A program made the translations under genes and the position numbers. Below are positions 1,156-9,695 of a stretch of DNA of 9,695 nt, in pieces. A model generated the notes under the pieces. The model searched no databases, was not told the origin of the DNA, and saw nothing but the letters and a program-made list of their open reading frames with translations. The stretch lies in IMG/VR virus record IMGVR_UViG_2529292907_000010. One strand, 5' to 3'. The stretch is from a virus (Duplodnaviria; Heunggongvirae; Uroviricota; Caudoviricetes). Each line of letters starts with the position of its first letter. Within the stretch, counting starts at the first letter, position 1.

Positions 1156-1338
1156 ATGGCGAAGTATAAACGAATTCTGTTGAGGTTGACTATGAAAAAT
1201 GGCCTTGAACTGAAAGCGCCTGTAACTGATGACATCAGCAGAGCACTGGCTTTTGCCATTAAGTGGGTGGCGGTCGGTGTTGCTGTGTCCCCGATGCTGT
1301 ATGGGCTGGCAAAACTGGTCATTGCGTTGAAATCGTGA
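1156..1338 (+). CDS. Small hypothetical protein (60 aa) with hydrophobic C-terminal half; candidate lysis-associated membrane protein
   Basis: ATG at 1156 preceded by purine-rich AAGGCAAGGGAGA. Product [60 protein letters not shown] has a basic N-terminus and a ~30-residue hydrophobic C-terminus. Same strand and tightly packed between R and Rz. The track's longer 1123 start is a GTG inside the terminator T-tract and is less likely. Confidence 0.45.
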
Positions 1339-1484: not shown

Positions 1485-1954
1485 ACATAAACCGAATGCT
1501 TTCCGCGTTTATCGTTATTCTGCTGGTGGCCTGTGGTGCGCTGTGGATGGCAACAGACCATTACCGTGATAACGCGATTACCTACAAAGCGCAGCGCGAT
1601 AACAAAGCCAGTGAACTGAAGCTGGCGAACGCAACCATTACTGATATGCAGGTGCGCCAGCGCGATGTTGCTGCGCTCGATGCAAAATACTCGAGGGAAT
1701 TATCCGATGCGAGAGCTGAAAATGAAACTCTGCGCGCTGATGTTGCCGCTGGTCGTAAGCGCCTGCGGATCAACGCCACCTGTCCAGGCTCCGTGCGTGA
1801 AGCCCCCACCACCTCCGGCGTGGATAATGCAACCGGCCCCCAACTGGCAGACACCGTTACACGGGATTATTTCACCCTCAGAGAGCGGCTGATGACGATG
1901 CACAAGCAACTGGAAGGGGCACAGGACTATATCCGCACTCAGTGCCTGAAATAA
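1481..1954 (+). CDS. Rz: Rz i-spanin (inner-membrane spanin subunit)
   Basis: N-terminal TM segment followed by [14 protein letters not shown]...[25 protein letters not shown]...[23 protein letters not shown], which matches my memory of lambda Rz closely. Start is either GTG 1481 (overlapping the upstream stop) or ATG 1496. Confidence 0.9.
1707..1892 (+). CDS. Rz1: Rz1 o-spanin (outer-membrane lipoprotein), fully nested in the +1 frame of Rz
   Basis: ATG 1707 with GAGG about 10 nt upstream. Product [61 protein letters not shown] has a lipoprotein signal with lipobox VSAC and a proline-rich mature region, as in lambda Rz1. Confidence 0.8.
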
Positions 1955-2304
1955 GTTTTGTTGATGCGCCGTATCGTCGCTGTATTCCCTCATTAACAGA
2001 GACCGCAGCCCGACAGGGAGACTCCTCTGCGCGAGTGTGCGGGGATAATCAAAAACGATACACACCGGGGTTTACCGCGTTAACGGAGCGCGGCGTTGTC
2101 CCCTCATAGTCGCCTGTCCGGTGCGATGGTGGAAGAAGCCGGATGTTTATCACTATTAATTGATGACACAGAAATGGATTCATTGAATTTCAGCACGTTT
2201 TTGTATTCGTGTTATTGAACATCTGTTTATTTTACTTTTAACATATTGATAATAAAAAGAGCTGTAAATCTTTAGATGAGTCGATTTTGTCCGGGGAAGT
2301 TCAA

Positions 2305-2445
2305 ATGGATTTTATGCTGACGGTTTCTGGTGTGGTTATCCTGTCCATTGCTTATACTGCAGATAAATATGGCTGCCATTTGTTATCACGTATTGGCGCT
2401 TATTGTTCGTTGATGCTGATTTTCTCGTCGCTTTTTTTTGAGTAA
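2305..2445 (+). CDS. Hypothetical small hydrophobic peptide (46 aa) in an AT-rich island
   Basis: ATG 2305 with GGGGAAG 5 nt upstream. Product MDFMLTVSGVVILSIAYTADKYGCHLLSRIGAYCSLMLIFSSLFFE. Below the ORF-track size cutoff; surrounding DNA is very AT-rich. No homolog recognised. Confidence 0.3.
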   Translation: MDFMLTVSGVVILSIAYTADKYGCHLLSRIGAYCSLMLIFSSLFFE

Positions 2446-2577
2446 GTTATATTAATTATAACAAATAATTTTCTGTGTTATTTTTTCAGGCTATCCCGTC
2501 AGAGGGGAAGCCTGTACTGCCGGGGAGCGAATGGAAAACTGATGTGTCCGGTAACTGCGTGTTCTGTGAACACCATG

Positions 2578-2763
2578 TTACTTAATTATGTAATTCATAC
2601 CCGAACTCTCTGTTGACAGCCTTCTTCTGCAGGCTTCAATAACCCACGCTGAAAAGTTTCCTGAACCTTTCAGATCAAGAGCGATGTTAATTTGTTCAAT
2701 CATCTGGTTTGGAAATCGGATGTTGCGGGTTGTTGTTCTGCGGGTTCTGTTCTTTGATGACAT
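2578..2763 (-). CDS. Arc/MetJ-like ribbon-helix-helix (RHH) DNA-binding protein, 61 aa
   Basis: Segment NIRFPNQMIEQINIALDLKGSGNFSAWVIEACRRRL follows the RHH pattern (beta-strand N-x-R-[FW]-P, helix A, Gly-containing turn, helix B) and aligns by eye with P22 Arc (NLRWPREVLDLVRKVAEENGRSVNSEIYQRVMESF). Inverted repeats lie upstream of its start on the minus strand. Confidence 0.55.
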   Translation of the reverse strand: MSSKNRTRRTTTRNIRFPNQMIEQINIALDLKGSGNFSAWVIEACRRRLSTESSGMNYIIK

Positions 2764-2818
2764 AATGTTTCCCCATATTCAGTGTTGCTGATTTGTATTA
2801 TCTGAAGTTGCTTTTACG

Positions 2819-2841
2819 TTAATTTGATGCAGATCAATTAA
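2819..2841. promoter_or_regulatory. Imperfect inverted repeat TTAATTTGAT-gcag-ATCAATTAA, candidate operator for the adjacent RHH gene
   Basis: Arms of about 10 bp around a central GCAG, located 56-78 bp upstream of the RHH start codon (2763, minus strand). RHH repressors commonly autoregulate through such repeats. Confidence 0.3.
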
Positions 2842-2918
2842 TACGATACCTGCGTCATAATTGATTATTTCTCGTGGTTTGATGGCGTACACACATGTTG
2901 TGATAAACCTTATATAGA

Positions 2919-2933
2919 TGATAATCATTATCA
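2919..2933. promoter_or_regulatory. Perfect 7-1-7 palindrome TGATAAT-C-ATTATCA, identical to the core of the Fur-box consensus; function unproven
   Basis: TGATAATCATTATCA read at 2919-2933 matches the central 15 bp of GATAATGATAATCATTATC. A second ATAAT-tg-ATTAT palindrome is at 2857-2868. A plausible sigma70 promoter (-35 TTGTGA 2898-2903, 16-bp spacer, -10 GATAAT 2920-2925) overlaps it on the plus strand. It lies about 40 bp upstream of cosN and may instead be part of the conserved cos flank. Confidence 0.35.
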
Positions 2934-2970
2934 TTTTCGTGGGTCCTTTCCGGCGATCCGACCGGTTACG

Positions 2971-2982
2971 GGGCGGCGACCT
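2971..2982. other. cos: cos cohesive-end sequence (cosN core, GGGCGGCGACCT)
   Basis: GGTTACG|GGGCGGCGACCTCGCGG...TATTTATGAAAATTTT matches the junction of the lambda right and left genome ends as I remember them. Position immediately upstream of Nu1 is as in lambda. Confidence 0.85.
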
Positions 2983-3020
2983 CGCGGTTTTTCACTATTT
3001 ATGAAAATTTTTCAGGGAAA

Positions 3021-3131
3021 ATCGTGTCGGTACTTCTCGAATATAACTTTTTGTTTTTTTAATATTGCATCCGTAAAGGTCCGACATGAAAGTGTCCGAA
3101 AATGCCTTTTTCTGGCGTTTTCACGTCGGGC
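3021..3131. promoter_or_regulatory. cosB: cosB-like region: four copies of a GTCGG/CCGAC-containing element in alternating orientation, with an A/T-tract between them
   Basis: CGTGTCGGTA (3021-3030, +), GGTCCGACATG (3078-3088, inverted), GTGTCCGAA (3092-3100, inverted), CACGTCGGG (3122-3130, +). The layout between cosN and Nu1 resembles the lambda R3-I1-R2-R1 arrangement. Element boundaries are approximate. Confidence 0.4.
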
Positions 3132-3157
3132 CTTGTATTTGATAATGGGTTGTTTTC

Positions 3158-3706
3158 ATGAAGGTTAATAAAAAGAGGCTTGCCGAAATTTTCAACGTGG
3201 ACCCGCGGACGATTGAACGCTGGCAGTCTCAGGGACTCCCTTGCGCCTCCAAAGGTAGTAAGGGCATTGAATCTGTATTTGATACTGCCATGGCAATTCA
3301 GTGGTATGCGCAGAGGGAAACTGATATCGAAAACGAAAAGCTCCGCAAAGAACTGGACGATTTGCGTGCGGCAGCGGAGTCAGATTTACAACCCGGCACC
3401 ATTGACTATGAACGCTACAGGCTCACAAAAGCGCAGGCAGATGCGCAGGAACTGAAAAATGCCCGTGAAGACGGAGTAGTGCTGGAAACTGAACTGTTTA
3501 CCTTCATTCTGCAACGTGTGGCACAGGAGATTTCGGGGATACTTGTGCGTGTGCCGTTGACATTACAGCGTAAATATCCGGACATTTCACCATCACACCT
3601 TGATGTGGTGAAAACTGAAATCGCGAAAGCCTCCAATGTTGCAGCTAAGGCCGGTGAAAACGTGGGCGGGTGGATCGATGATTTCAGACGCGCAGAAGGC
3701 AGCTAA
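3158..3706 (+). CDS. Nu1: Terminase small subunit (gpNu1-like), N-terminal winged-HTH cosB-binding domain
   Basis: 182 aa. [28 protein letters not shown]...[49 protein letters not shown] is near-collinear with lambda Nu1 from memory. Confidence 0.95.
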
Positions 3707-5605
3707 TGCAGCCGGTGCGATAGCTACAGGGCTTTTATCTCTCATTATTCCTGTTCCACTGACGACAGTTCAGTGGGCCAATAAACATTATTACCTTCCT
3801 AAAGAGTCGTCTTATACCCCGGGGCGGTGGGAAACACTGCCGTTTCAGGTTGGCATCATGAACTGTATGGGCAACGATCTGATTCGCACGGTTAACCTGA
3901 TTAAATCTGCCCGTGTTGGTTATACAAAGATGTTGCTGGGAGTGGAGGCTTATTTTATTGAGCATAAATCACGCAACAGCCTTCTTTTTCAGCCCACGGA
4001 CTCAGCTGCTGAAGATTTTATGAAATCTCATGTTGAGCCAACGATAAGGGATGTTCCTGCATTGCTGGAGCTGGCTCCATGGTTCGGAAGAAAACACCGC
4101 GATAATACGCTCACCCTGAAGCGTTTTTCCTCCGGTGTGGGGTTCTGGTGTCTGGGTGGTGCGGCAGCAAAAAACTACCGTGAAAAATCCGTGGATGTGG
4201 TCTGTTATGACGAGCTTTCCTCGTTCGAACCGGATGTTGAAAAAGAGGGTTCGCCAACCCTGCTGGGGGATAAACGTATTGAGGGCTCTGTATGGCCAAA
4301 ATCCATTCGCGGCTCGACGCCTAAAATCAAAGGCTCCTGCCAGATCGAAAAAGCCGCTAACGAGTCGGCACACTTCATGCGTTTTTATGTGCCCTGTCCG
4401 CACTGTGGGGAGGAGCAGTATCTGAAATTTGGCGATGATGCCTCGCCTTTCGGTCTTAAGTGGGAGAAGAATAAGCCAGAAAGTGTTTTCTACCTTTGTG
4501 AGCATCATGGCTGTGTGATCCATCAGTCTGAGCTTGACCAGAGTAACGGGCGGTGGATCTGTGAAAACACGGGCATGTGGACCCGTGACGGCCTGATGTT
4601 TTTCAGCGCCCGGGGTGATGAAATTCCGCCGCCGCGCTCCATCACTTTCCATATCTGGACGGCGTACAGTCCGTTCACCACATGGGTACAGATTGTCTAT
4701 GACTGGCTGGATGCACTGAAAGATCCCAACGGCCTGAAAACCTTTGTGAACACCACGCTGGGCGAGACCTGGGAAGAGGCTGTGGGCGAAAAACTCGATC
4801 ACCAGGTACTGATGGATAAGGTTGTGCGTTACACGGCGGCGGTGCCTGCCCGGGTGGTTTATCTGACGGCGGGCATTGACTCGCAGCGAAACCGTTTTGA
4901 GATGTATGTCTGGGGATGGGCTCCGGGAGAGGAAGCCTTTCTGGTGGATAAAATCATCATTATGGGGCGTCCCGATGAGGAAGAGACGCTGTTACGTGTG
5001 GATGCGGCGATCAACAAAAAATACCGCCATGCAGACGGAACCGAAATGACTATTTCTCGTGTCTGCTGGGACATCGGGGGGATCGATGGCGAAATCGTTT
5101 ATCAGAGGTCAAAAAAACACGGTGTTTTCCGGGTGCTGCCGATAAAAGGCGCATCTGTCTATGGCAAGCCGGTGATCACCATGCCAAAAACCCGCAATCA
5201 GCGGGGCGTGTATCTGTGTGAAGTGGGGACGGACACCGCAAAGAAATTCTCTATGCCCGTATGAAAGCCGATCCCACGCCTGTGGATGAAGCCACGTCGT
5301 ATGCCATCCGTTTTCCTGATGATCCGGAGATTTTTTCGCAGACAGAGGCGCAGCAACTGGTCGCGGAAGAGCTTGTGGAGAAGTGGGAAAAAGGAAAGAT
5401 GCGTCTGCTGTGGGATAACAAAAAGCGGCGTAACGAAGCGCTGGACTGCCTGGTGTATGCCTACGCGGCATTACGTGTGTCCGTGCAACGCTGGCAGCTT
5501 GATCTGGCTGTACTGGCAAAATCCCGGGAAGAAGAGACGACCCGGCCAACCCTTAAAGAACTGGCAGCGAAGCTGTCCGGAGGAGTGAATGGTTACAGTC
5601 GCTGA
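3678..5605 (+). CDS. A: Terminase large subunit (gpA-like), interrupted by an apparent 1-nt frameshift near 5240-5245; possible pseudogene or sequencing error
   Basis: Frame 0 (3678-5264) matches lambda gpA from ...[12 protein letters not shown] through ...[13 protein letters not shown], then stops. The homology continues in the -1 frame ([17 protein letters not shown]...[25 protein letters not shown]... to stop at 5603-5605). The switch occurs in GCAAAGAAATTC; one missing base would restore a single ~641-aa ORF. Likely start ATG 3678, overlapping the Nu1 3' end as in lambda. Confidence 0.88.
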
Positions 5606-9320: not shown

Positions 9321-9695
9321 ATGGGATTGTTTACGACCCGCCAGTTACTCGGTTATACCGAACAAAAAGTTAAATTCCGTGCGCTATTTCTGGAGCTGTT
9401 TTTCCGCCGTACGGTGAATTTCCACACCGAAGAGGTGATGCTGGACAAAATTACCGGAAAAACGCCGGTGGCGGCCTATGTCTCCCCGATCGTTGAAGGA
9501 AAAGTGCTGCGCCATCGTGGTGGTGAAACCCGCGTGTTGCGTCCGGGCTACGTCAAGCCGAAACACGAATTTAATTACCAGCAGGCGGTTGAGCGCCTTC
9601 CCGGTGAAGATCCGGCTCAGCTGAACGACCCGGCCTACCGTCGTCTGCGTATCATCACTGATAACCTCAAACAGGAAGAGCACGCTATTGTGCAG
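9321..9695 (+). CDS. E: Major capsid protein (gpE-like), 5' portion only; runs off the end of the window
   Basis: ATG 9321 with AAAGGAA upstream. MGLFTTRQLLGYTEQKVKF..LFLELFFRR...YVSPIV.G.V.R.RGG....PGYVKPKHE...RLP.EDP..L.DPAYRR.RII matches lambda gpE. No stop before 9695. Confidence 0.9.
   Translation, partial: MGLFTTRQLLGYTEQKVKFRALFLELFFRRTVNFHTEEVMLDKITGKTPVAAYVSPIVEGKVLRHRGGETRVLRPGYVKPKHEFNYQQAVERLPGEDPAQLNDPAYRRLRIITDNLKQEEHAIVQ

What the first reader, a model, noticed from the sequence alone, without database searches (positions are those of the whole stretch)
1955..2970. Moron-like island, partly AT-rich, between Rz and cos, with convergent small genes
The equivalent position in lambda carries accessory genes such as bor. 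Here the ~1 kb holds different content: stretches that look much more AT-rich by eye than the flanking phage genes (around 2160-2500 and 2760-2940), a 46-aa hydrophobic peptide ORF with a good SD (2305-2445), and a convergent minus-strand Arc-like RHH gene (2578-2763) with upstream inverted repeats. A small membrane peptide next to a small DNA-binding protein in AT-rich DNA could be a toxin-like peptide or abortive-infection/lysogenic-conversion module with its own regulator. Nothing here matches a family I can name with confidence, so it is a candidate for an undescribed accessory function.
Basis: partly seen in the sequence, partly recalled or inferred. Interest (0 to 1): 0.55.

Follow-up and report, generated by a model that had tools for sequence, protein, structure and literature searches.

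The report
Accessory slot between Rz and cos
This stretch is the usual "extra genes" slot of a lambda-like E. coli prophage: it holds a known, well-conserved small DNA-binding gene (YlcI/YnfO family, function unknown) and a 490-base AT-rich insertion whose 46-codon reading frame looks no different from chance, so it is largely ordinary.

Summary
Bases 2160-2500 and 2760-2940 are 33% and 32% GC against 52% for the window. The 46-codon ORF (2305-2445) and the minus-strand 61-codon gene (2578-2763) exist, and cosQ/cosN lie at 2941-2947 and 2971-2982.

- **A true insertion.** An "empty-site" relative joins ~2112 directly to ~2603, so ~2114-2602 is extra DNA in a known accessory slot. That slot carries bor-ybcV-ybcW in lambda, pchA/B/C and the sRNA HnrS in O157 Sakai, and cspI-gnsB in Qin.
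- **The DNA-binding gene has a name.** It is a YlcI/YnfO family member (Pfam DUF3950) under strong purifying selection (dN/dS 0.04-0.13). It occurs in 77% of complete E. coli genomes and in lambda itself.
- **The two ORFs are not a pair.** The cassette accompanies at most about 9% of ynfO copies and also occurs without ynfO.
- **The 46-codon ORF is unproven.** It is an E. coli-only orphan. An ORF this long appears in 44% of shuffles, its hydrophobicity fits the T-rich strand, and dN/dS is about 0.7.
- **No known system matches.** Nothing matched a defence system, a toxin-antitoxin module or an RNA family.

Verdict: an ordinary mosaic accessory slot with one uncharacterised cassette. Interest is low.

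The parts
1955..2113 (.). Segment A: GC-normal (57%) conserved left flank of the slot, apparently non-coding. It is shared with many lambdoid prophages and is a relic of the lambda bor-ybcV spacer.
   Evidence: About 94-97% identical in Sakai Sp12 and Sp15 and in L098. Window 1973-2080 is 80% identical to lambda DNA between bor and ybcV. ORF 1942-2109 hits phrog_6954, but substitutions show no third-position bias in that frame. PGAP calls no gene here.
2114..2602 (.). AT-rich (37% GC) insertion of about 490 bp, the 'cassette'. It is restricted to E. coli prophages.
   Evidence: Empty-site allele L098 joins window ~2112 to ~2603 with 6 nt between them. The cassette (queried as 2110-2577) is present in 748 of 5426 complete E. 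coli genomes at 90% identity or more. The 2144-2577 core is in only 2 of 50,697 phage records. It is in none of the GTDB species representatives. GC.
2305..2445 (+). 46-codon orphan ORF on the late-gene strand. The predicted product is a two-helix hydrophobic peptide. Coding status is unresolved.
   Evidence: WP_000347013.1. Only near-identical E. coli homologs exist. AF2 predicts helices 2-22 and 24-44 at pLDDT 72. Chance tests are. dN/dS is 0.74 against L006, from 5 non-synonymous and 2 synonymous changes. No Pfam, NCBIfam, PHROG, PADLOC or BFVD match.
2446..2577 (.). Structured spacer between the two convergent ORFs: several hairpins, no canonical intrinsic terminator.
   Evidence: RNA folding of 2440-2580 gives z -2.33 on the + strand and -2.63 on the - strand; 3 of 200 shuffles fold as well on each strand. 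It is the most variable, indel-rich part of the cassette. Only one weak terminator-like site was found, at 2559-2573.
2578..2763 (-). YlcI/YnfO family (DUF3950) gene, a predicted ribbon-helix-helix DNA-binding protein. The conserved core is codons 1-49 (2617-2763). The last 12 codons are supplied by the inserted cassette.
   Evidence: PF13132 at 9.2e-19, NF041551 at 9.1e-09, phrog_949 at 9.1e-32. dN/dS 0.04-0.13 with dS 0.49-0.85 against lambda, DLP12, Qin, Sp12, O157 and PPyecE. Core invariant, C-terminal tails hypervariable. Fold evidence.
2764..2940 (.). AT-rich cos-proximal non-coding DNA shared with lambda. It presumably carries the leftward ynfO promoter in lambda-type phages.
   Evidence: Window 2629-3011 is 88-92% identical to lambda, DLP12, Qin, Sp11 and Sp14. 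It is absent from HNH-type phages, where ynfO starts 41 bp from the HNH gene. ORF 2779-2934(-) matches phrog_9395 and is probably a spurious call.
2833..2865 (.). Inverted repeat ATCAATTAATACG-N7-CGTCATAATTGAT, a candidate operator.
   Evidence: It is identical in lambda (48373-48405), DLP12, Qin and Sp11, with one change in Sp14. It sits in the longest invariant run of the alignment (2824-2862), but a run that long arises in 15% of random placements.
2941..2982 (+). cosQ (2941-2947) and the cosN 12-nt cohesive-end sequence (2971-2982).
   Evidence: Exact matches to the lambda GGGTCCT and GGGCGGCGACCT. Alignment to the lambda right and left ends.

Best explanation
The interval is the ordinary accessory ('moron') slot between the lysis cassette and cos of a lambda-like E. 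coli prophage. It is a recombinational patchwork of four pieces.

1. **1955-2113** is a conserved, apparently non-coding relic that forms the left flank of the slot in many prophages.
2. **About 2114-2602** is a ~490-bp AT-rich insertion found only in E. coli prophages.
3. **2617-2763** is the conserved core of a YlcI/YnfO (DUF3950) gene.
4. **2764-2982** is cos-proximal DNA shared with lambda itself.

The only element shown to be under selection is the ynfO-like gene. It most likely encodes a dimeric ribbon-helix-helix DNA-binding protein. It is transcribed leftward from the cos-proximal region, against the late operon. It probably binds the palindrome 70-100 bp upstream of its start. Fold and orientation are shown here; DNA binding and autoregulation are inferred.

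The insertion provides the last 12 codons of that gene, a structured spacer and a 46-codon ORF on the late strand. I judge this ORF most likely a fortuitous or very young reading frame in T-rich foreign DNA. If it is translated at all, that would be from the Q-antiterminated late transcript, because no convincing promoter of its own was found. The peptide ORF and the RHH gene are neighbours by recombination, not a functional toxin/regulator pair.
For: **Patchwork and insertion**
- The empty-site allele L098 lacks the insertion.
- Mosaic breakpoints recur at about 1958, 2143, 2553, 2763 and 3015 in 88 related loci.
- The same flanks enclose other cargo: bor-ybcV-ybcW in lambda and DLP12, cspI-gnsB and ydfO in Qin, pchA/B/C in Sakai Sp4, Sp11 and Sp14, the 66-nt sRNA HnrS in Sp9, Sp10 and Sp12, and nothing in Sp15.

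**ynfO is a real, constrained gene**
- dN/dS is 0.04-0.13 at dS 0.49-0.85.
- It scores above the Pfam and NCBIfam cutoffs.
- It is found at 9562 places in 4184 of 5426 genomes, and lambda has an intact copy at 48109-48303.
- ylcI is transcribed convergently with ybcW in K-12 RNA-seq (PMC12288877).

**The ORF is weak**
- An ORF of at least 46 codons appears in 44% of shuffles.
- T content is 39%, 46% and 48% at codon positions 1, 2 and 3, so T is not confined to position 2. GRAVY is within the random range.
- dN/dS is 0.74 against the only diverged lineage. My tally from the variable sites listed is 6 non-synonymous to 5 synonymous.
- By the same tally, SNP density in the ORF (about 9 per 100 nt) is no lower than in the upstream non-coding 2144-2304 (6.2 per 100 nt).
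- Variants with a truncated, extended or frameshifted product exist.
- No homolog lies outside the E. coli cluster among 1.84 billion cluster representatives or the GTDB representatives.
- No sigma-70 site scoring 9 of 12 or better lies on the + strand upstream, and no clear terminator follows.

**Not a pair**
- The copy numbers differ more than tenfold, L007 carries the cassette without ynfO, and the orientation is convergent.
Against: - PGAP calls the 46-codon ORF a gene.
- Its Shine-Dalgarno-like element is as strong as those of Rz and ynfO and is kept in all variants.
- The frame stays open with the stop at the same position in the 91%-identical lineage (TAA to TGA).
- 85 of 87 sampled copies keep residues 1-45. 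Indels cluster just outside the ORF.
- The pooled non-synonymous to synonymous ratio (about 0.36 per site, my estimate) leans towards weak purifying selection. Diversity is too low for any of these tests to have power.
- A weak promoter candidate read by eye (TTGAAC 2215-2220, 18 nt, TAACAT 2239-2244; 8 of 12) cannot be excluded.
- The operator idea for the palindrome is weakened in two ways. ynfO also occurs in HNH-type phages without it, and its invariance is not statistically significant.
Confidence: 0.6

Rival explanations
1. The 46-codon ORF is a genuine orphan gene. It would encode a two-helix inner-membrane micro-protein carried by a moron. It would be made from the late transcript (modulating lysis timing or envelope events) or at low level in the lysogen (exclusion or conversion), independently of ynfO.
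For: - PGAP annotates it.
- The Shine-Dalgarno-like element pairs at -5.7 kcal/mol and is conserved.
- The frame and stop position are kept in the diverged lineage, and residues 1-45 are kept in 85 of 87 copies.
- AF2 predicts a helical hairpin at pLDDT 72.
- Small proteins on the late strand occupy the same slot in Qin: ynfQ, ynfR, ynfN and gnsB.
- The cassette has spread to 14% of complete E. coli genomes.
Against: - ORF length and hydrophobicity are expected from composition.
- dN/dS is 0.74 against the diverged lineage.
- The ORF is no more conserved than the upstream non-coding DNA.
- The C-terminus varies through T-run slippage, and one lineage deletes it.
- It has no homologs and no family or structure match.
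- No clear promoter or terminator was found.
Confidence: 0.3
2. The cassette's product is an RNA rather than a protein: a small RNA, or an antisense or 3'-UTR element acting with convergent ynfO transcription. This would parallel the HnrS cassette that occupies the same slot in O157 prophages.
For: - HnrS lies between the same two flanks in Sp9, Sp10 and Sp12.
- The best-conserved part of the cassette is the non-coding 2144-2304: 6.2 variable sites per 100 nt and no indels.
- 2440-2580 is more structured than shuffles on both strands.
- One promoter-like site lies on the minus strand, from 2268 to 2240.
- ybcW-ylcI overlap as a convergent 'excludon' in K-12.
Against: - The only Rfam match in the window at E <= 1 is a far-below-threshold miRNA model at 3024-3087, outside the cassette.
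- The cassette has no sequence similarity to the HnrS cassette.
- No intrinsic terminator lies on the minus strand.
- 2144-2290 does not fold better than shuffles (z -1.3 and +1.0).
- The structured spacer is the least conserved part of the cassette.
Confidence: 0.1
3. One reading: the hydrophobic peptide is a toxin or abortive-infection effector, and the adjacent RHH protein is its dedicated regulator or antitoxin.
For: - A small hydrophobic ORF lies next to a small RHH gene in AT-rich DNA.
- Many of the structural neighbours of the RHH model are antitoxins such as CopG-type, VapB, ParD and MazE, and there is a weak HicB-like PHROG hit at E 0.012.
Against: - The genes are convergent, not co-transcribed.
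- The ynfO core has 9562 copies in 4184 genomes against 816 cassette copies, and it sits next to entirely different cargo, including in lambda.
- The cassette occurs without ynfO.
- The YnfO C-terminal tail, which would be the toxin-binding part of a type II antitoxin, is hypervariable and set by whatever DNA abuts the core.
- There are no PADLOC hits and no RNA family match inside the cassette.
- The ORF shows no coding constraint.
Confidence: 0.03

Closest known systems
YlcI (DLP12) and YnfO (Qin) of E. coli K-12, and the unannotated lambda ORF at 48109-48303 (complement): Pfam DUF3950 / NCBIfam NF041551
   Same: The 49-residue core is nearly identical, with 4 non-synonymous differences from lambda, DLP12 and Qin. 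Position and orientation are the same: last gene before cos and Nu1, opposite to the late operon. The upstream cos-proximal DNA and palindrome are the same.
   Different: The C-terminal 12 residues (STESSGMNYIIK) come from the inserted cassette and differ from every K-12 or lambda tail. The family has no tested function.
Lambda accessory slot between Rz and cos (bor, lambdap78/ybcV, lambdap79/ybcW); 'morons' in the sense of Juhala et al. 2000
   Same: Same slot. The cargo has a composition unlike its flanks and is absent from otherwise homologous phages.
   Different: The cargo is unrelated to bor, ybcV or ybcW. No autonomous promoter or terminator was recognisable.
HnrS (EcOnc10-12) sRNA cassette of O157:H7 Sakai prophages Sp9, Sp10 and Sp12 (PMC13502914; PMC4104026)
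   Same: It lies between the same two flanks (segment A up to window 2143, ynfO core from window 2635). It is a few hundred AT-rich bases and replaces the YnfO C-terminal tail.
   Different: There the product is a 66-nt Hfq-bound sRNA with an intrinsic terminator on the ynfO strand. Here there is no sequence similarity, no such terminator and no RNA family match inside the cassette.
pchA, pchB and pchC (PerC-like LEE regulators) of Sakai Sp4, Sp11 and Sp14
   Same: They occupy the same Rz-to-cos slot. In Sp11 and Sp14 the ynfO core and lambda-type cos lie downstream.
   Different: They are 104-residue regulators with known function, on the strand opposite the late genes, and unrelated in sequence.
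Arc and Mnt repressors of phage P22, and other ribbon-helix-helix proteins (PutA N-domain, CopG-type antitoxins)
   Different: There is no antirepressor target gene in this window. Dimerisation and DNA binding are untested.
Type I toxins (Hok, Ldr, TisB, Ibs, Zor)
   Same: A short hydrophobic ORF in a prophage.
   Different: No antisense RNA, no family match and no coding constraint. Two predicted helices rather than one.

Membership tests
YlcI/YnfO family (Pfam PF13132 DUF3950; NCBIfam NF041551) | Profile match above the curated cutoffs | tested here: met
   PF13132 scores 67.5 bits (cutoff 25), E 9.2e-19. NF041551 scores 35.2 bits (cutoff 30). phrog_949 matches at 9.1e-32.
YlcI/YnfO family (Pfam PF13132 DUF3950; NCBIfam NF041551) | Conserved core containing the G-N-F-S-A-W motif | tested here: met
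   Residues 35-40 (GNFSAW) are invariant or nearly invariant in 28 aligned homologs.
YlcI/YnfO family (Pfam PF13132 DUF3950; NCBIfam NF041551) | Position next to the packaging module of lambdoid prophages, opposite to the late operon | tested here: met
   The arrangement is the same in lambda, DLP12, Qin, Sp11 and Sp14. In Sp12, O157 86-24 and PPyecE it sits next to HNH-terS instead.
Ribbon-helix-helix (Arc/MetJ/CopG) DNA-binding fold | Strand-helix-helix topology and similarity to solved RHH structures | tested here: inconclusive
Ribbon-helix-helix (Arc/MetJ/CopG) DNA-binding fold | Dimerisation and operator binding | not testable with these tools
   The candidate operator is the palindrome at 2833-2865. 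Its conservation is not statistically significant.
Moron (Juhala et al. 2000) | Extra DNA absent from otherwise homologous phages | tested here: met
   The empty-site allele L098 joins ~2112 to ~2603.
Moron (Juhala et al. 2000) | Nucleotide composition unlike the flanking phage genes | tested here: met
   37% GC against 50-57% in the flanks.
Moron (Juhala et al. 2000) | Its own promoter and terminator around the gene | tested here: not met
   No + strand sigma-70 site scoring 9 of 12 or better lies upstream of 2305. No G+C-rich stem with a T-run follows 2445, apart from a weak site at 2559-2573. Consensus scans are insensitive, so this is a weak negative.
Moron (Juhala et al. 2000) | Expression from the repressed prophage | not testable with these tools
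   No transcriptome data could be tied to this cassette. It is absent from the seven Sakai prophages examined: Sp4, Sp9, Sp10, Sp11, Sp12, Sp14 and Sp15.
Type II toxin-antitoxin or toxin-regulator pair | Co-directional operon and co-inheritance of the two genes | tested here: not met
   The genes are convergent. There are 816 cassette copies against 9562 ynfO copies, and the cassette occurs without ynfO in L007.
Type I toxin-antitoxin | Conserved small toxin ORF with an overlapping antisense RNA | tested here: not met
   No RNA family match inside the cassette, no minus-strand terminator, and dN/dS 0.74.
Known anti-phage defence systems (PADLOC-DB 2.0) | Profile match to any component | tested here: not met
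   No hit at E <= 1 for either product.
HnrS-type sRNA cassette | Sequence similarity to HnrS, or a promoter plus intrinsic terminator on the ynfO strand at the left edge of the cassette | tested here: not met
   Sp12 shares only window 1900-2143 and 2635-2772. No terminator was found.

The most novel reading that the evidence does not exclude
The ~490-bp AT-rich insertion is a functional, E. coli-restricted orphan moron. Its 46-residue two-helix membrane peptide would be a young (possibly de novo) gene, translated from the late transcript or leakily in lysogens. It would alter lysis timing or exclude other phages. Convergent transcription of the strongly constrained ynfO gene would gate its expression in an excludon-like way, as reported for ybcW-ylcI in K-12.
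Probability: 0.2. Interest if true: 0.45.

Novelty: new member of a known kind. Interest (0 to 1): 0.2.

Why it matters
As it stands it matters little. The slot, the RHH family and both ORFs are already in public annotation.

Three points are useful by-products.
1. **Insertion boundaries.** They are defined by a natural empty-site allele, which gives a clean isogenic test for whether this widespread cassette (14% of complete E. coli genomes) does anything.
2. **A recombination hot-spot with fixed flanks.** Segment A and the ynfO core enclose virulence regulators (pchA/B/C), an anti-silencing sRNA (HnrS), bor and this cassette. Scanning that interval across genomes is therefore a cheap way to catalogue prophage cargo.
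3. **An unexplained gene in lambda.** The YlcI/YnfO gene is among the most widespread and most strongly constrained small genes of lambdoid prophages. It is intact but unannotated in the lambda reference genome, and it still has no known function.

Tried and rejected
**Searches that found nothing**
- Rfam at E <= 1 returned only a miRNA model at 3024-3087, far below its threshold and outside the cassette.
- Pfam, NCBIfam, PHROGs and PADLOC gave nothing for the 46-residue product.
- PDB sequence search gave nothing useful for YnfO.
- The word-indexed protein search, the exhaustive search of 1.84 billion cluster representatives and the GTDB representative genomes found only near-identical E. coli copies of the peptide, plus a few repetitive or low-identity hits that I discount as spurious.
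- Foldseek of the peptide model against viral structures gave nothing.
- A full-text search for the peptide sequence and for WP_000347013 returned no papers.

**Leads that failed**
[quoted passage not shown] It is absent from Sp4, Sp9, Sp10, Sp11, Sp12, Sp14 and Sp15. I did not check Sp3, Sp6, Sp8 or Sp17.
- I first thought the lambda homolog was lambda 'orf-64'. That name belongs to lambdap73, between Q and S, so I dropped it.
- svsR (PMC12803456) lies at the 3' end of cI and is not relevant here.
- I expected the palindrome upstream of ynfO to be significantly conserved. The 39-nt invariant run has P 0.15 under random placement, and ynfO also occurs without it.
- RNA folding of the ynfO leader is unremarkable (z +0.3).
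- By eye, I saw no terminal inverted repeats or target duplications at the cassette ends, so there is no sign of a transposable element.
- The ylcI mutations reported in evolution studies carry no functional information.
Full report
**Setting**

The window is the late region of a lambda-like E. coli prophage. In order it holds:
- lysozyme (466-999);
- two small ORFs;
- Rz (1481-1954, Pfam Phage_lysis 7e-47), with an embedded ORF at 1665-1892 in the position Rz1 occupies in relatives;
- the interval in question;
- cosQ (2941-2947) and the cosN cohesive-end sequence (2971-2982);
- Nu1 (3158-3706, Pfam Phage_Nu1 1.9e-81), then terminase large subunit, portal and head genes.

The interval 1955-3157 is 99.3-99.8% identical to chromosomal prophages of many E. 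coli strains, including O104:H4. In total, 260 of 5426 complete genomes carry at least 80% of it.

**Observation check**

- GC is 33.1% for 2160-2500 and 32.0% for 2760-2940, against 52.2% for the window. These are the most AT-rich stretches in the 9.7 kb.
- The 46-codon ORF (2305-2445) has a GGGGA Shine-Dalgarno-like element that pairs as well as those of Rz and ynfO.
- The 61-codon minus-strand gene is at 2578-2763.
- A 13-nt inverted repeat lies upstream of it at 2833-2865.
- PGAP annotates both ORFs in near-identical genomes, as WP_000347013.1 (hypothetical protein) and WP_001329960.1 (YlcI/YnfO family protein).

**Anatomy: a patchwork with an insertion**

Comparison with relatives shows recurrent breakpoints.
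- Phage PPyecE_EH1910 and O157 strain 86-24 share exactly 1958-2763 at about 94-95% identity without gaps. Downstream of the ynfO start codon they continue with an HNH endonuclease and a different terminase.
- Lambda, DLP12, Qin and Sakai Sp11 and Sp14 share the stretch from about 2621-2629 rightwards to about 3011-3018 at 88-92% identity; in Sp11 the match continues into Nu1.
- Sakai Sp12 shares only 1900-2143 and 2635-2772.
- Sakai Sp15 shares 1900-2148 and then runs straight into its own cos.
- One assembly (L098) joins window ~2112 directly to ~2603, with six bases between them. There the YnfO protein reads into segment A (tail ...DYEGTTPRSVNAVNPGVYRF). That tail is the minus-strand translation of window 2049-2183.

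So about 2114-2602 is a real insertion of roughly 490 bp at 37% GC. It sits between a conserved left flank (segment A) and the ynfO core. Window 1973-2080, inside segment A, is 80% identical to lambda DNA between bor and ybcV.

**The slot is a known cargo site**

Between the same landmarks other prophages carry other cargo.

| Prophage | Cargo in the Rz-to-cos slot |
|---|---|
| Lambda, DLP12 | bor, ybcV, ybcW |
| Qin | cspI, ynfQ, ynfR, ynfN, gnsB, ydfO |
| Sakai Sp4, Sp11, Sp14 | pchA, pchB, pchC |
| Sakai Sp9, Sp10, Sp12 | sRNA HnrS |
| Sakai Sp15 | none |

For HnrS, I found a 66-nt sequence that is identical in all three prophages. It ends in an intrinsic terminator, lies on the ynfO strand and sits at the left edge of their cassette. 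It is 126-131 nt from the EcOnc10-12 Hfq peaks published on the older Sakai record. By my recollection of that record's length, it was 128 bp shorter than the current one. This fits the published description of HnrS: 66 nt, three identical copies, intrinsic terminator (PMC13502914; PMC4104026 Table S2). The 5' end is my inference from the published length.

**The RHH gene**

It is a YlcI/YnfO family member (PF13132 DUF3950 at 67.5 bits against a cutoff of 25; NF041551; phrog_949).
- **Selection.** Codons 1-49 are under strong purifying selection. dN/dS is 0.04-0.13 at dS 0.49-0.85 against lambda, DLP12, Qin, Sp12, O157 86-24 and PPyecE.
- **Tails.** The C-terminal tails are hypervariable; I count about a dozen unrelated tails among the 28 aligned homologs. 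They are set by whatever DNA abuts the core.
- **Distribution.** The core occurs at 9562 places in 4184 of 5426 complete genomes, up to 12 copies per genome.
- **Lambda.** It has an intact copy at 48109-48303 (complement) that the RefSeq record does not annotate. This is not lambda 'orf-64', which is lambdap73 between Q and S.
- **Function.** No paper in the library reports a function. K-12 RNA-seq shows ylcI transcribed convergently with, and overlapping, ybcW (PMC12288877).

**The palindrome upstream of ynfO**

It is identical in lambda (48373-48405), DLP12, Qin and Sp11, and lies in the longest invariant run of the alignment (2824-2862). A run that long arises in 15% of random placements of the variable sites. 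In HNH-type phages ynfO sits 41 bp from the HNH gene, with no such repeat. An operator role is plausible but not shown.

**The 46-codon ORF**

*Homologs.* Only near-identical E. coli copies exist. This holds in the 5.8-billion-sequence collection, among 1.84 billion cluster representatives read exhaustively, and in viral contigs (97 loci at 96-98% identity). GTDB species representatives have none. It has no family, defence-system or structural match.

*Chance tests.*
- 44% of dinucleotide shuffles of the cassette core (2144-2577) contain an ATG ORF of at least 46 codons.
- T makes up 39%, 46% and 48% of codon positions 1, 2 and 3, so the hydrophobicity follows from the T-rich strand rather than from position-2 enrichment.
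- 14.5% of random ORFs with this composition are at least as hydrophobic.

*Selection tests.*
- Against the only diverged lineage (L006 and L007, 91% identical) there are 5 non-synonymous and 2 synonymous changes, giving dN/dS 0.74.
- My tally of the variable sites over 54 haplotypes gives 6 non-synonymous to 5 synonymous. By the same tally, site density in the ORF (about 9 per 100 nt) is no lower than in the upstream non-coding 2144-2304 (6.2 per 100 nt).
- Variants with a deleted, extended or frameshifted C-terminus or a mid-ORF frameshift exist.

*In its favour.* The Shine-Dalgarno-like element and the stop position are retained. Indels cluster outside the frame. 85 of 87 sampled copies keep residues 1-45. 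Diversity is too low to settle the matter, and I lean towards a fortuitous or very young frame.

*Transcription signals.* No + strand promoter scoring 9 of 12 or better lies upstream, and no clear terminator follows. Translation, if any, would come from the Q-antiterminated late transcript. That step is inferred.

**Are the two ORFs a module?**

No.
- They are convergent.
- The cassette accompanies at most about 9% of ynfO copies (816 against 9562 places).
- It also occurs without ynfO, next to a different terminase module (L007).
- ynfO sits beside entirely different cargo in lambda and elsewhere.
- The part of YnfO that would bind a toxin in a type II antitoxin is the unconstrained tail.

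**RNA alternatives**

- Rfam finds no match inside the cassette.
- The spacer between the two ORFs (2440-2580) folds better than shuffles on both strands (z -2.3 and -2.6). It is also the least conserved part of the cassette.
- The best-conserved part (2144-2304) is not unusually structured.
- An RNA product is not excluded, but nothing points to one.

**Verdict**

The region is an ordinary mosaic accessory slot. The 'moron' label is right for 2114-2602. The RHH gene belongs to a named, uncharacterised family present in lambda itself. The toxin/regulator idea is not supported. The only open item is whether the E. coli-restricted cassette does anything. The natural empty-site allele makes that easy to test.

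Noticed in passing
window 3636-5605 (indel near 5240): The terminase large-subunit gene is split into 3636-5264 and 5261-5605. The cause is a 1-nt deletion in an A-run relative to the intact 1929-bp gene of O104:H4 (L002). This is either a pseudogene, making the prophage defective, or a homopolymer sequencing error.
   Followed up: partly
lambda NC_001416.1 48109-48303 (complement); locus L010: The lambda reference genome carries an intact 64-codon YlcI/YnfO homolog about 170 bp from cosN that its RefSeq record does not annotate. Another lambda record (PV340536.1) calls it hypothetical. It is not lambda 'orf-64', which is lambdap73.
   Followed up: yes
window 1156-1338 and 1353-1484: Two small ORFs sit between lysozyme and Rz: 60 aa, and 43 aa that is strongly hydrophobic. 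They are annotated hypothetical in relatives and match phrog_1115 and phrog_4906, both of unknown function. In O157 prophages the same position holds an antirepressor gene.
   Followed up: no
window 1942-2109: A 55-codon GTG ORF matches phrog_6954, labelled 'Rz-like spanin' (1.4e-16). Substitutions against a relative show no third-position bias in that frame, and PGAP calls no gene. The DNA is 80% identical to the lambda bor-ybcV spacer. The PHROG label probably comes from ORF calls on conserved non-coding DNA.
   Followed up: partly
window 2779-2934 (minus strand): A 51-codon ORF matches phrog_9395 over its full length (3.1e-39). It lies on the cos-proximal DNA shared with lambda, where the frame is shorter and starts with GTG. 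It is probably a recurrent spurious call.
   Followed up: partly
L005 (Sakai Sp12), L099 (Sp10), L100 (Sp9): A 66-nt sequence with an intrinsic terminator is identical in the three prophages. It lies at the left edge of their cassette on the ynfO strand, 126-131 nt from the published EcOnc10-12 peaks. By my recollection the older Sakai record was 128 bp shorter than the current one, which would account for the shift. This places the sRNA HnrS in exactly the slot studied here.
   Followed up: yes
L013, L012, L014 (Sakai Sp4, Sp11, Sp14): The LEE regulators pchA, pchB and pchC each sit immediately after Rz in the same slot. In Sp11 and Sp14 an unannotated ynfO core and lambda-type cos follow.
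   Followed up: partly
window 2717-2754: The first 38 nt after the ynfO start region, which encode the arginine- and threonine-rich N-terminal arm, are invariant at the nucleotide level in six diverged phages, synonymous sites included. By the same random-placement test this is not significant, but it could reflect a constraint on translation initiation or on the RNA.
   Followed up: no
window 2896-2911: Relative to lambda, DLP12, Qin, Sp11 and Sp14, the window has a 7-bp insertion about 35 bp upstream of cosQ. It creates a promoter-like TTGTGA-16-GATAAT on the + strand at 2898-2925, pointing into cos.
   Followed up: no
window 2159-2249: Four copies of ATTGA, each part of a -35-like TTGAnn hexamer, lie at 2159, 2182, 2214 and 2245 in the best-conserved non-coding part of the cassette. 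One of them (TTGAAC 2215-2220, 18 nt, TAACAT 2239-2244; 8 of 12) is a weak promoter candidate for the 46-codon ORF. This was read by eye.
   Followed up: no
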